Made by a program: the position numbers and the translations under genes. The notes beneath the pieces were generated by a model. It did not search any database, was not told the origin of the DNA, and saw only the letters and a list, made by a program, of their open reading frames with translations. From a virus (Duplodnaviria > Heunggongvirae > Uroviricota > Caudoviricetes): 54,512 nucleotides of DNA. Shown here piece by piece: positions 17,347-18,118 of this stretch. Numbering within the stretch: position 1 is the stretch's first letter; each line of letters begins with the position of its first letter. The DNA is taken from the IMG/VR virus record IMGVR_UViG_2529293142_000033; one strand, 5' to 3'.

Positions 17347-17405
17347 TTCTGCCAGCTCCCCCAGAGCTGGCTTTTTTTGAGGTCTGCTCCGGCAGGCTTT
17401 TTTAT
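17347..17405 (+). terminator. tandem rho-independent terminators
   Basis: ccagctcccccagagctgg+T7 followed by ggtctgctccggcaggc+T6. Confidence 0.65.
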
Positions 17406-17543
17406 TTCCGCGCCACGCCCGGCGCATATCAAAAACCACAGAGCCTTACAGAAATGAGCTTCGGAGAAACACCGTAATAAGCGGCGGCTTCTCTGTGGGC
17501 GGTGTTTCTGGGCGACGAGGCTCATTTTTGTAAGGAGAGCGTG

Positions 17544-18089
17544 ATGAACTATCCAGACATTGTTAACGGCATTGATTTTCGTGATCTGGTTATGGTTGCG
17601 GGCGATTCCGTCCTGACCACGAGTGTTAAAGTGGCAGAATTTTTTGGCAAGAGCCACAAGAACGTATTAAGAAAGATCAGACAAATCATTTCTGAATGCC
17701 CTGATGATTTTGCCCGGCTCAATTTTGAGCCCACTGATTTTATTGATAAAAATGGCGACATCCAGCCAATGTTTAACATGACGAAGGACGGGTACATGCT
17801 GGTCGTCATGGGGTTTACCGGCAAGGCTGCAATGAAAATGAAAGTTGCGTACATCCAGGCTTTCAACTGGATGGCGGAGCTTATTCGGCAGGGAGTGGCA
17901 AATCTTGAGGCTGAACGCAATGCCGTCATGCTGGAATACATGAAAGAGAAGGATGTTGCCAGTATGTCGGGGCGTTTGCTTAACCGCTGGGGAAGAGTGA
18001 AAAAGCCACAGCTTCAGGCAAGGATCGAACAACTTGAGCAGCGAGGGCAGATATCCCTGCCCGGTATCGACAGCGTATTAACACACTGA
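17544..18089 (+). CDS. second Rha-family regulatory protein / antirepressor
   Basis: aaggagag RBS; VAGDSVLTTSVKVAEFFGKSHKNVLRKIRQII..YMLVVMGFTGKAAMKMKVAYIQAFN parallels the rha copy at 9557. Confidence 0.75.
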   Translation: MNYPDIVNGIDFRDLVMVAGDSVLTTSVKVAEFFGKSHKNVLRKIRQIISECPDDFARLNFEPTDFIDKNGDIQPMFNMTKDGYMLVVMGFTGKAAMKMKVAYIQAFNWMAELIRQGVANLEAERNAVMLEYMKEKDVASMSGRLLNRWGRVKKPQLQARIEQLEQRGQISLPGIDSVLTH

Positions 18090-18091
18090 GG

Positions 18092-18118
18092 TCTGCTACG
18101 GCAGGCCTTTTTTGTGTC
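18092..18118 (+). terminator. rho-independent terminator
   Basis: ggtctgctacggcaggcc hairpin plus T6; near-identical to terminator at 17378. Confidence 0.65.

What the first reader, a model, noticed from the sequence alone, without database searches (positions are those of the whole stretch)
17378..18118. Second rha antirepressor copy framed by near-identical terminators
The prophage carries two Rha-family genes (9557-10102 and 17544-18089). The second is flanked by two almost identical terminator hairpins (ggtctgct(c/a)cggcagg(c)c+T-run at 17378-17405 and 18092-18118), suggesting acquisition as a discrete cassette. Duplicated antirepressors of different specificity can allow cross-induction by or of co-resident prophages.
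Basis: seen in the sequence. Interest (0 to 1): 0.4.

Follow-up and report, generated by a model that had tools for sequence, protein, structure and literature searches.

The report
Phage rha gene between repeated terminators
This is an ordinary P22/phi80-type 'rha' regulator gene in the late operon of an E. coli-type lambdoid prophage; the two look-alike terminators around it are real but are not portable cassette ends, and the most interesting part is a conserved RNA leader hairpin, absent from Rfam, that hides the gene's ribosome-binding site.

Summary
Two Pfam Rha proteins exist (9557-10102 and 17544-18089). The second is flanked by a 26-nt direct repeat, 24/26 identical, each copy a good intrinsic terminator. 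The two genes are not duplicates: they share 39% identity in the Rha domain only and lie in different operons. Copy 2 is a full-length homologue of the P22/phi80 late-operon gene rha, for which no antirepressor activity has been shown. The hairpins are not conserved cassette ends. Hairpin 1 occurs in relatives that lack rha2. Of 80 rha2 homologues, only two near-identical contigs carry hairpin 2. The closest relative differs only by a swapped 291-bp Rha-domain block inside the gene. The hairpins belong to a terminator family with a third copy at 18906-18934 that punctuates late-region modules. By-product: rha2 has a conserved three-part 5' region, made of a terminator, a small GC hairpin and a ~92-nt hairpin that pairs the Shine-Dalgarno sequence. 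Covariation is strong (18 of 31 pairs compensatory) and Rfam has no match. The same leader precedes rha, ant, ANT/KilAC, TerB and HNH-AP2 genes in lambdoid late operons. Its P22 copy is the reported small RNA P22F, of unknown function.

The parts
14975..15727 (+). Q-type late antiterminator gene (context: defines the start of the late operon)
   Evidence: Pfam Antiterm, E=9e-54. RefSeq annotates the 96-97% identical E. coli prophage copy as an antitermination protein.
16114..16423 (+). Array of four tRNA genes (Met/Ile-CAT, Arg-TCT, Thr-TGT, Gly-TCC) downstream of Q
   Evidence: ARAGORN; Rfam tRNA matches.
16750..17244 (+). orf164, an accessory gene of unknown function that precedes the terminator pair
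   Evidence: ORF list; PHROG 6315, unknown function, E=1.4e-27; no Pfam match.
17351..17378 (+). Terminator A (GCCAGCTCCCCCAGAGCTGGC plus a T-run), immediately upstream of hairpin 1
   Evidence: Terminator scan. Energy -15.3 kcal/mol, z=-4.0. Conserved in tandem with hairpin 1 in L005-L008, L010 and L011.
17378..17403 (+). Hairpin 1 (HP1): an intrinsic terminator and the first element of the three-part rha2 5' region
   Evidence: It occupies the same position (-165 from the ATG) as the terminator upstream of about nine in ten rha2 homologues. It is present without rha2 in L006 and L010.
17410..17425 (+). P0: a small GC hairpin (GCGCC-ACGCCC-GGCGC), the second element of the leader
   Evidence: Predicted in the fold. 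Homologous GCGC...GCGC hairpins occur in all leaders. Partial matches of variable extent to window 17372-17440 (the 3' part of HP1 plus P0) occur in 910 of 5426 E. coli genomes.
17444..17535 (+). P1/P2: a long leader hairpin whose 3' base pairs the AAGG of the Shine-Dalgarno sequence (AAGGAG, 17532-17537). The covariance-model match spans 17439-17546.
   Evidence: Fold z=-4.9. All 40 distinct homologous leaders fold the same way. Models R1 and R2 score 51 and 82 bits. Covariation: 94.4% of cells paired against 33-46% in slid controls, and 18 of 31 pairs show compensatory changes. No Rfam family matches.
17544..18089 (+). rha2 coding sequence (181 aa): N-terminal Rha domain (aa 25-111) plus C-terminal ORF11CD3 domain (aa 121-173). 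Full-length homologue of P22 Rha.
   Evidence: Pfam. PHROG 518, Rha-like transcriptional regulator, E=1.9e-81. 49.7% identity over 92% of the protein to P22 Rha.
17556..17846 (+). Mosaic block: the Rha-domain coding segment, which is the only part that differs from the E. coli 2015C-4136CT1 prophage
   Evidence: Alignment A1 and the identity profile: 100% identity outside this block and 33-83% inside it.
18087..18112 (+). Hairpin 2 (HP2): an intrinsic terminator whose TGA is the rha2 stop codon
   Evidence: Found only in this lineage. Homology to the STEC rha ends at about 18066, some 20 nt upstream of HP2.
18169..18483 (+). orf104, with a strong SD (GGGAGGG), overlapping the next gene convergently; not annotated in RefSeq
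   Evidence: ORF list. 57% identical homologue in L017, including the part that does not overlap the other gene.
18308..18802 (-). orf164b, a minus-strand accessory gene between HP2 and HP3
   Evidence: ORF list. PHROG 3983, unknown function, E=2e-52. RefSeq hypothetical protein.
18906..18934 (+). Hairpin 3 (HP3): a third, diverged member of the terminator family. It has the same flanks as HP2 (ACACTGAGGTC ... CCTTTTTTGT) and its stem has changed in a compensatory way.
   Evidence: -16.9 kcal/mol.
9557..10102 (+). rha1: an early-operon Rha-domain gene between the cII-like gene and the replication genes
   Evidence: Pfam Rha, E=3.6e-31. Upstream gene is Pfam Phage_CP76 (CII) and downstream gene is HTH_36/DnaD_N. 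77-97% identical homologues occur in mEp460, cdtI, ST64B and Stx phages.
9311..9499 (+). isrK-like (9311-9387) and C4 antisense-like (9412-9499) RNA genes directly upstream of rha1
   Evidence: Rfam gathering-threshold matches: isrK 60.1 bits, C4 82.3 bits.

Best explanation
rha2 is a P22/phi80-type rha gene: a non-essential DNA-binding regulator with a Rha winged-helix N-domain and an ORF11CD3 C-domain. It lies in the accessory ('moron') zone of a lambdoid prophage late operon, between the Q/tRNA genes and the lysis genes. It brings a conserved three-part 5' control region. First comes an intrinsic terminator (here HP1). Then comes a small GC hairpin (P0). Last comes a ~92-nt hairpin (P1/P2) that base-pairs the Shine-Dalgarno sequence. 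The following mechanism is inferred. No sigma-70-like promoter lies upstream of rha2 (inference from a consensus scan). In the lysogen, the run of terminators (16689, 17351, HP1, HP2, HP3) stops read-through from pR', the tRNA genes and neighbouring accessory genes, so neither rha2 nor the downstream holin is expressed. After induction, Q-modified RNA polymerase ignores the terminators and transcribes rha2 as a late gene. The leader hairpin then limits or times translation and is left behind as a stable small RNA. HP1, HP2 and HP3 are copies of one terminator family that punctuates modules in this phage lineage. HP1 is the native 5' element of the leader. HP2 and HP3 terminate the rha2 module and the next module. 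Gene flow happened by recombination in conserved sequence: the leader, the gene's 5' end, and the AYIQAFNWM-coding stretch at the end of the Rha domain. It did not happen by moving a hairpin-bounded cassette.
For: Identity of the gene: Pfam Rha plus ORF11CD3; PHROG 518; 49.7% identity over 92% of the protein to P22 Rha. P22 rha is annotated in the late operon between Rz and gene 3. Late-operon position here: Q, the tRNAs, orf164, rha2, and then holin and lysozyme in the 96-97% identical annotated prophage. No promoter-like site on the + strand between 16364 and the rha2 start; 12 terminator-like sites against 4.8 expected. Leader: the same fold in all 40 distinct homologues; 18 of 31 pairs compensatory, 94% paired against no more than 46% in slid controls, 0 of 500 shuffles as high; minus-strand scores much lower. 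The leader ends at the conserved ATG in P22, Stx phages and the window. The P22 copy is identical to the 89-nt P22F RNA detected during infection (PMC13397905). The three-part unit is also seen in P22, in Stx-phage ant and in the O157 TerB gene. A terminator lies at -165 to -182 in about nine in ten homologues. Hairpin family with three members and compensatory stem changes. Intragenic mosaic block at 17556-17846.
Against: There are no expression data for this prophage. Q-dependence, terminator efficiency and translational repression by the leader are inferred from sequence and from lambda/P22 paradigms. The absence of a consensus promoter does not exclude a weak or non-sigma-70 promoter. The P22F ends do not fit a simple RNase III cut (the 5' end lies 8 nt inside the stem and the 3' end beyond it), so how the small RNA arises is unknown. 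How HP2 was copied is unresolved; the P0-like remnant after HP2 is only suggestive (13/15, shuffle p=0.004). The biochemical function of Rha is unknown.
Confidence: 0.7

Rival explanations
1. rha2 is a discrete cassette whose ends are the two terminator hairpins. The hairpins act as short homologous or structure-prone recombination sites through which modules are inserted and deleted.
For: The repeat is far beyond chance. A third family member bounds the next module. In L005, L007, L008 and L011 two family members flank a different ~210-nt insert. L006 and L010 have a single hairpin and no insert.
Against: Hairpin 1 plus the first ~30 nt of the leader is conserved in phages without rha2, so the left joint is not at the hairpin. 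Of 80 rha2 homologues, only the two near-identical contigs have either hairpin, and 70 have no terminator after the stop codon. Of 762 E. coli genomes with the ORF11CD3 segment, only 3 reach HP2. Homology to the STEC rha ends about 20 nt before HP2, inside the last codons. No precise HP-to-HP deletion product was found. No recombinase or target-site duplication is present.
Confidence: 0.2
2. HP2 is the 5' terminator element of a second, now decayed, three-part leader module. The late region would then be a tandem array of [terminator-P0-P1-gene] units, and the 'frame' around rha2 is simply two adjacent unit starts.
For: After HP2, a P0-like stretch (GCACACAGCAGCGCA) matches the STEC P0 (GCGCACCGCAGCGCA) at 13/15, lies the same 7 nt after the T-run, and has shuffle p=0.004. 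Every examined leader unit starts with a terminator.
Against: No P1-like hairpin follows HP2: models R1 and R2 find only one copy in the window. Comparison with the window's own P0 is not significant (p=0.6). HP3 is followed directly by a start codon with no leader.
Confidence: 0.25
3. The two Rha proteins are antirepressors of different specificity that allow cross-induction of, or by, co-resident prophages.
For: Databases often label Rha-domain proteins 'antirepressor'. rha1 is preceded by isrK- and C4-type RNAs. This is the arrangement that controls P1 ant (own knowledge) and Gifsy-1 anrP, and AnrP does induce Gifsy-1 (PMC4825925). The Stx-phage late gene 'ant' shares the ORF11CD3 domain and the leader with rha.
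Against: No repressor binding has been shown for any Rha-domain protein that I could find. Pfam finds no ANT or AntA domains in either copy. AnrP is unrelated to Rha1 and Rha2. The only genetics for this gene type is inhibition of phage growth in IHF-deficient hosts. The two copies are not recent duplicates (39% identity, Rha domain only). rha2 appears to be expressed only late, after the decision to induce has already been made.
Confidence: 0.12
4. The similarity of HP1 and HP2 is convergence: independent terminators under the same functional constraints.
For: All terminators share a GC stem and a T-run. The region is terminator-rich.
Against: Identity extends to the loop, the unpaired TGA 5' flank and the wobble position. 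0.01 matches are expected by chance. The other terminators in the region (16689, 17351) are unrelated in sequence.
Confidence: 0.02

Closest known systems
rha (orf201) of Salmonella phage P22 and rha of phage phi80
   Same: Full-length homology with the same Rha plus ORF11CD3 architecture. It is a late-operon accessory gene. It has the same terminator-P0-P1 leader ending at the same ATG.
   Different: Here the gene lies between Q/tRNAs and the holin rather than between Rz and the small terminase gene. This lineage has a terminator fused to the stop codon. The IHF-related phenotype is untested.
Morons of lambdoid phages (Juhala/Hendrix concept; PMC3594210, PMC2629481)
   Same: It is an accessory gene present or absent between genes that are adjacent in relatives. 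It has a terminator at its 3' end and lies in a region of high flux.
   Different: No promoter of its own was detected. It looks Q-dependent rather than independently expressed. Most homologues have no 3' terminator.
SD-sequestering mRNA leaders of phage regulators, e.g. the lambda N leader with its RNase III site (own knowledge)
   Same: A long, stable hairpin in the 5' untranslated region pairs the ribosome-binding site of a regulatory gene.
   Different: There is no sequence relationship. No nut or antitermination role is apparent. RNase III dependence is untested. Here the leader is a portable unit found in front of at least five unrelated gene families.
P22F small non-coding RNA (PMC13397905, 2026)
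   Same: The P22 member of the leader family is identical to the 89-nt P22F sequence.
   Different: That paper reports an RNA of unknown function in one phage. The conserved structure, the covariation and the spread across genes and phages are shown here.
P1 c4-icd-ant and Gifsy-1 isrK-orf45-anrP modules (relevant to copy 1 only)
   Same: isrK-like and C4-like RNAs lie directly upstream of rha1.
   Different: The downstream protein is a Rha-domain protein unrelated to AnrP. It lies in the early right operon next to cII, as in the 'Eru' Stx phages (PMC8951638).
Domain shuffling among KilA-N/Bro-N/Rha/ANT phage regulators (Iyer, Koonin and Aravind 2002, cited in PMC8951638)
   Same: The nearest relative keeps the leader and the ORF11CD3 domain but has a different Rha domain. 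Stx-phage ant is P22_AR_N plus ORF11CD3.
   Different: Nothing new in kind. This is a fresh, nucleotide-resolved example.

Membership tests
Pfam Phage_pRha (PF09669) | Significant match to the Rha domain profile above the gathering score | tested here: met
   Bit scores of 106.5 and 108 against a cutoff of 29.9 for rha2 and rha1.
P22/phi80 rha orthologue group | Full-length similarity including the C-terminal ORF11CD3 domain | tested here: met
   49.7% identity over 92% of the protein to P22 Rha. P22 Rha has the same two Pfam domains. rha1 lacks ORF11CD3 and so is not a member.
P22/phi80 rha orthologue group | Located in the Q-dependent late operon | tested here: met
   It lies downstream of Q and the tRNAs and upstream of holin and lysozyme on the same strand, though in a different slot from P22.
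P22/phi80 rha orthologue group | Inhibits phage growth in IHF-deficient hosts; regulated by IHF | not testable with these tools
   This is a genetic phenotype (PMC4936722). No convincing IHF consensus site was seen by eye.
Phage antirepressors (P22 Ant / P1 Ant / Gifsy AnrP type) | Sequence relationship to a protein with demonstrated antirepressor activity (ANT/KilAC, AntA or P22_AR_N domains, or AnrP) | tested here: not met
   Pfam finds only Rha (plus ORF11CD3). BLASTP against Gifsy-1 AnrP gives E=0.67 and E=13. The PHROG 'anti-repressor' hits are name-only annotations of Rha or ORF11CD3 families.
Phage antirepressors | Binds and inactivates a prophage repressor | not testable with these tools
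   Requires biochemistry or genetics.
Moron | Present between genes that are adjacent in related phages | tested here: met
   L006 and L010 have the upstream orf, terminator A, the hairpin and then the lysis genes, without rha2.
Moron | Own promoter, expressed independently of the host operon | tested here: not met
   No sigma-70-like site between 17244 and 17544. A consensus scan only, so weak evidence.
Moron | Own factor-independent terminator downstream | tested here: met
   HP2 at 18087-18112. It is absent after 70 of 80 homologues.
Mobile cassette with conserved boundary repeats (integron, MITE or IS-like) | The same boundary sequences flank the gene wherever it occurs; target-site duplication or an associated recombinase | tested here: not met
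   No recombinase is nearby. The exact hairpin is absent from 185,579 species-representative genomes except for chance-level hits.
Intrinsic (Rho-independent) terminators | GC-rich stem-loop followed by a U-run | tested here: met
   HP1, HP2 and HP3 have 9-bp stems, 4-nt loops, at least 5 U, and energies of -12.9 to -16.9 kcal/mol.
Any Rfam family (for the leader) | Covariance-model match | tested here: not met
   Nothing at gathering thresholds. Only E>0.1 noise in the permissive scan of 17300-18200.
Conserved cis-acting RNA structure (the leader family defined here, models R1/R2) | Base pairs maintained by compensatory substitutions across homologues, specific to one strand | tested here: met
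   18 of 31 pairs with double changes; covariation score 0.525 against no more than 0.085 in slid controls. The alignment was fitted to the model, but independent single-sequence folds agree. The sense strand scores far higher than the antisense strand.

The most novel reading that the evidence does not exclude
The terminator-P0-P1 unit is an uncatalogued, portable 5' control module of lambdoid-phage late operons. It would be a Q-gated terminator followed by an SD-sequestering hairpin, and phages would use it to plug toxic or dose-sensitive accessory genes (rha, ant, ANT/KilAC, TerB, HNH-AP2) into the late transcript. It would also serve as the conserved 'linker' through which such genes are exchanged by homologous recombination. 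Its stable hairpin product (P22F) may have a trans function of its own.
Probability: 0.35. Interest if true: 0.6.

Novelty: new member of a known kind. Interest (0 to 1): 0.4.

Why it matters
As posed, the finding matters little. A late-operon rha gene and a second, unrelated early Rha-domain gene are common in lambdoid phages, and the 'cassette' and 'cross-induction' ideas are not borne out.

Two things are useful. First, this is a clean, nucleotide-resolved example of how lambdoid mosaics form. Exchange occurs within conserved leader and domain-boundary sequence, while repeated terminators insulate accessory modules that lie upstream of a lethal lysis cassette.

Second, the rha leader is a well-supported conserved RNA structure that Rfam lacks. 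It precedes at least five gene families, and partial matches to its first part occur in about one in six complete E. coli genomes, including O157:H7 and Stx phages. Its P22 copy accumulates as a small RNA of unknown function. This makes an old open question directly testable: how rha is controlled, and why it is toxic without IHF.

Tried and rejected
(1) A megablast of 16600-19000 against 50,697 phage records gave only short fragments, so close relatives had to come from E. coli genomes and IMG/VR.

(2) The genome-contig scan for the exact hairpin gave 10 hits, all in unrelated MAGs. About 9 are expected by chance for a 19-mer in 596 Gb, so this is no information. Three of the 11 IMG/VR hits (L004, L012, L013) were likewise chance matches without a T-run.

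(3) RNAalifold on plain MAFFT alignments recovered only part of the leader, because the outer stem was misaligned. This was solved with a covariance model seeded from one sequence pair.

(4) I tested whether rha1 is an AnrP homologue, as the upstream isrK-like RNA suggested. It is not.

(5) I looked for a defence-system or structural assignment for the neighbouring unknown ORFs and for Rha2. PADLOC and PDB gave nothing.

(6) I looked for an empty site (HP joined to the sequence after HP2) through homologues of the downstream gene. Only distant homologues in unrelated contexts turned up (L016, L017).

(7) Henthorn and Friedman 1995 could not be read, so the phi80/P22 genetics are cited second-hand.

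(8) Reading P0 as a sigma-70 promoter was considered and rejected. The spacing would be 19-20 nt, the hexamers are poor, and the P22F 5' end does not fit.
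Full report
OBSERVATION. TGAGGTCTGCTCCGGCAGGCTTTTTT lies at 17378-17403. TGAGGTCTGCTACGGCAGGCCTTTTT lies at 18087-18112. Together they form a 26-nt direct repeat, 24/26 identical without gaps. Allowing 3 mismatches, the 19-nt core occurs exactly twice in 54.5 kb, against 0.01 expected from shuffles. Both copies are good intrinsic terminators with 9-bp stems, 4-nt loops and U-runs. Their energies are -12.9 and -15.5 kcal/mol, with z about -4.3. Both named ORFs are Pfam Phage_pRha proteins (E about 1e-30). The second also has a C-terminal ORF11CD3 domain.

CONTEXT. The window is a lambdoid prophage, 96-99% identical over this region to prophages in three of 5,426 complete E. 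coli genomes. rha2 lies on the late-operon strand. The gene order starts with the Q antiterminator (14975-15727) and four tRNA genes (16114-16423), followed by a terminator and then orf164. Next come terminator A (17351-17371), HP1, a 140-nt leader, rha2 and HP2. After HP2 comes a convergent pair of unknown genes (18169-18483 on the + strand, 18308-18802 on the - strand). A third terminator follows (stem 18907-18928), then a sialyltransferase-like gene and a GT9 gene, and finally holin and lysozyme. The region holds 12 terminator-like sites against 4.8 +/- 2.3 expected. No promoter-like site lies on the + strand between the tRNAs and rha2.

Copy 1 (9557-10102) lies in the early right operon, between a CII-like gene and DnaD-like replication genes. 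Rfam isrK-like and C4-like RNAs lie directly upstream of it.

ARE THE TWO GENES DUPLICATES? No. They share 39% identity over 123 residues, confined to the Rha domain, and their C-termini are unrelated. They fall in different PHROGs (518 and 821). rha1 has 77-97% identical homologues in mEp460, cdtI, ST64B and many Stx phages. This matches the 'Eru' Stx-phage arrangement of Rha or Rha/Ash genes next to cI (PMC8951638).

rha2 is a full-length homologue of P22 Rha (orf201), at 49.7% identity over 92% of the protein, with the same two Pfam domains. P22 rha is annotated in the late operon between Rz and gene 3. The 86%-identical STEC homologue and the Stx2a phage P13374 copy sit in that same slot. 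P22 and phi80 rha are known only as late genes whose product blocks phage growth in IHF-deficient hosts (PMC4936722). The primary paper could not be read.

ARE THE HAIRPINS CASSETTE BOUNDARIES?

(i) Terminator A plus HP1, and about 30 nt beyond, is conserved in IMG/VR phages that have no rha2. In L006 and L010 it is followed by another leader and lysis genes. Partial matches to the 3' part of HP1 plus the next 30 nt occur in 910 of 5,426 E. coli genomes. In the two contexts inspected, including O157:H7, a family member directly follows the tRNAs and precedes a TerB-family gene.

(ii) Among 80 IMG/VR rha2 homologues, only the two contigs nearly identical to the window carry HP1 or HP2. Seventy have no terminator after the stop codon. 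The ORF11CD3-coding segment is present in 762 E. coli genomes, but only 3 matches run into HP2.

(iii) Against the STEC gene, homology ends at about 18066, inside the last codons. So HP2, together with its own about 20-nt upstream flank and its TGA, supplies a new C-terminus and stop codon.

(iv) Against the closest relative (E. coli 2015C-4136CT1), both hairpins, the leader and the C-terminal domain are 100% identical. Only 17556-17846, the Rha-domain block, is replaced (33-83% identity). The exchanged unit is therefore a domain, and the joints lie in conserved sequence.

WHAT THE HAIRPINS ARE. They belong to a terminator family. A third member at 18906-18934 shares HP2's flanks (ACACTGAGGTC ... 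CCTTTTTTGT). Its stem is changed in a compensatory way, from TGC/GCA to GCC/GGC. Further members are TGAGGCTCGCTACGGCGGGCCTTTTT in L005 and L110 and AGGCTCGCTTCGGCGGGCCTTTTTT in O157.

In the window the three copies delimit two modules. In L005, L007, L008 and L011 two copies flank a different ~210-nt insert.

Functionally, every accessory module here lies upstream of the holin. Terminators that stop any lysogenic transcription, yet are ignored by Q-modified polymerase, are what one expects. This is inference from the lambda and P22 paradigm (P22 tR' annotation). How the copies arose is unresolved. After HP2 there is a weak P0-like remnant (13/15 to the STEC P0, same spacing, p=0.004). This hints that HP2 began as the first element of another leader unit.

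THE LEADER. The structure between HP1 and the ATG is large. It has a small GC hairpin (P0, 17410-17425) and a hairpin at 17444-17535 whose base pairs the AAGG of the Shine-Dalgarno AAGGAG (17532-17537). All 40 distinct homologous leaders fold into the same architecture independently, despite about 60% sequence identity.

A covariance model seeded from one sequence pair recovered the element in front of every rha2 homologue, always ending at the ATG. On 25 distinct sequences, 94.4% of cells are paired, against 33-46% when partners are slid. 18 of 31 pairs show compensatory double changes. The covariation score is 0.525 against no more than 0.085, and 0 of 500 shuffles reach it. One caveat is that the alignment was fitted to the model. 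The single-sequence folds are independent of it. Antisense hits score far lower, which supports a sense-strand RNA. Rfam has no matching family.

The same element occurs in P22 (86.7 bits with R2). There it ends at an ATG 69 nt downstream of the annotated orf201 start. Its sequence is identical to P22F, an 89-nt RNA of unknown function detected during P22 infection (PMC13397905).

With the broader model R2, the element also precedes four other gene types:
- Stx-phage ant, which is P22_AR_N plus ORF11CD3 (48-54 bits).
- An ANT/KilAC protein.
- The O157 TerB-family gene (34-43 bits).
- An HNH_3-AP2 gene (28 bits).

All of these lie in late regions. In every case inspected, a terminator and a P0-type hairpin precede it. 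Gifsy-1 has no copy.

MECHANISM. Shown: the gene identity, the late-operon position, the terminators, the conserved SD-pairing leader, the intragenic mosaic joint, and the lineage-restricted HP2. Inferred: (a) rha2 is silent in the lysogen and is transcribed only by Q-modified polymerase; (b) the leader limits or times translation and survives as a stable RNA; (c) the terminator copies insulate modules; (d) the conserved leader and domain-boundary sequences are the substrates of recombination. Confidence in the overall reading is about 0.7.

ANTIREPRESSOR IDEA. Neither copy has an ANT, AntA or P22_AR_N domain. Gifsy-1 AnrP is the protein downstream of the original isrK and is shown to induce its prophage (PMC4825925). 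It is unrelated to both copies. 'Antirepressor' labels on Rha proteins are annotation by name. rha1 does have the RNA-controlled context typical of antirepressor modules, so it is the better candidate of the two. rha2 would be made only after induction. I put cross-induction at about 0.1.

VERDICT. The gene is a new member of a known kind, the P22/phi80 late-operon rha. The framing terminators are a lineage-specific terminator family rather than cassette ends. The conserved three-part leader is the piece worth following up.

Noticed in passing
L098 (P22virB-3) 2368-2476; annotated rha start at L098:2405: The annotated start of P22 rha (orf201) lies inside the conserved leader hairpin. The covariance model and all homologues place the start at the ATG at L098:2474-2476. 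That gives a Rha of about 178 aa rather than 201 aa. The 2026 P22F paper also measures from this downstream ATG.
   Followed up: partly
window 8951-10102, especially 9299-9586: The Pfam Phage_ASH match (E=7.6e-11) in the long ORF 8951-10102 falls on exactly the stretch that Rfam calls isrK (9311-9387) and C4 antisense RNA (9412-9499). Either the 'Ash domain' is partly a translation of RNA genes, or the region is dual-use. PHROG 821 profiles (324 positions) also include this N-terminal extension.
   Followed up: partly
window 18169-18483 (+) and 18308-18802 (-): A convergent, 176-nt overlapping gene pair lies between HP2 and HP3. The + strand ORF (104 aa, SD GGGAGGG) is not annotated in RefSeq, yet it has a 57% identical homologue in L017, including its non-overlapping N-terminus. 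In L017 an Arc/RHH-like ORF precedes the pair, next to tail genes. There is no Pfam or PADLOC hit and the function is unknown.
   Followed up: partly
window 18941-20411: Two glycosyltransferase-like accessory genes lie directly upstream of the holin with no intergenic gap: PHROG 4603 'alpha-2,3-sialyltransferase' (E=9e-53) and a GT9 heptosyltransferase-like gene. They may be a surface-modifying lysogenic-conversion module, but they sit inside the late operon behind HP3.
   Followed up: no
window 7395-7733 (-) and 7802-8068 (-): The CI-like repressor appears as two separate ORFs, an HTH part and an S24 peptidase part. This suggests a frameshift or stop in the repressor gene, or an unusual split arrangement.
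   Followed up: no
L099 1032-1142; L028 1013-1122; L061 515-618; L110 2570-2673; L111 2052-2154: The rha-type leader hairpin also precedes Stx-phage ant (P22_AR_N plus ORF11CD3), an ANT/KilAC gene, an HNH_3-AP2 gene and a TerB-family gene. So it is a portable leader and is not specific to rha.
   Followed up: yes
window 13053-13964: A third member of the shuffled KilA-N/Bro/Rha regulator class (KilA-N domain, E=2e-15; PHROG 129) lies in the nin region. The prophage therefore carries three such regulators.
   Followed up: no
L005 2795-2998 (also L007, L008, L011): A ~210-nt insert bounded by two members of the terminator family holds a possible 57-codon ORF with no obvious SD. It is another hairpin-framed mini-module.
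   Followed up: partly
window 16114-16189: ARAGORN calls the first tRNA Met (anticodon CAT). RefSeq annotates the same gene in the near-identical E. coli prophage as tRNA-Ile, which implies a lysidine-modified CAT like ileZ of Stx phages.
   Followed up: no
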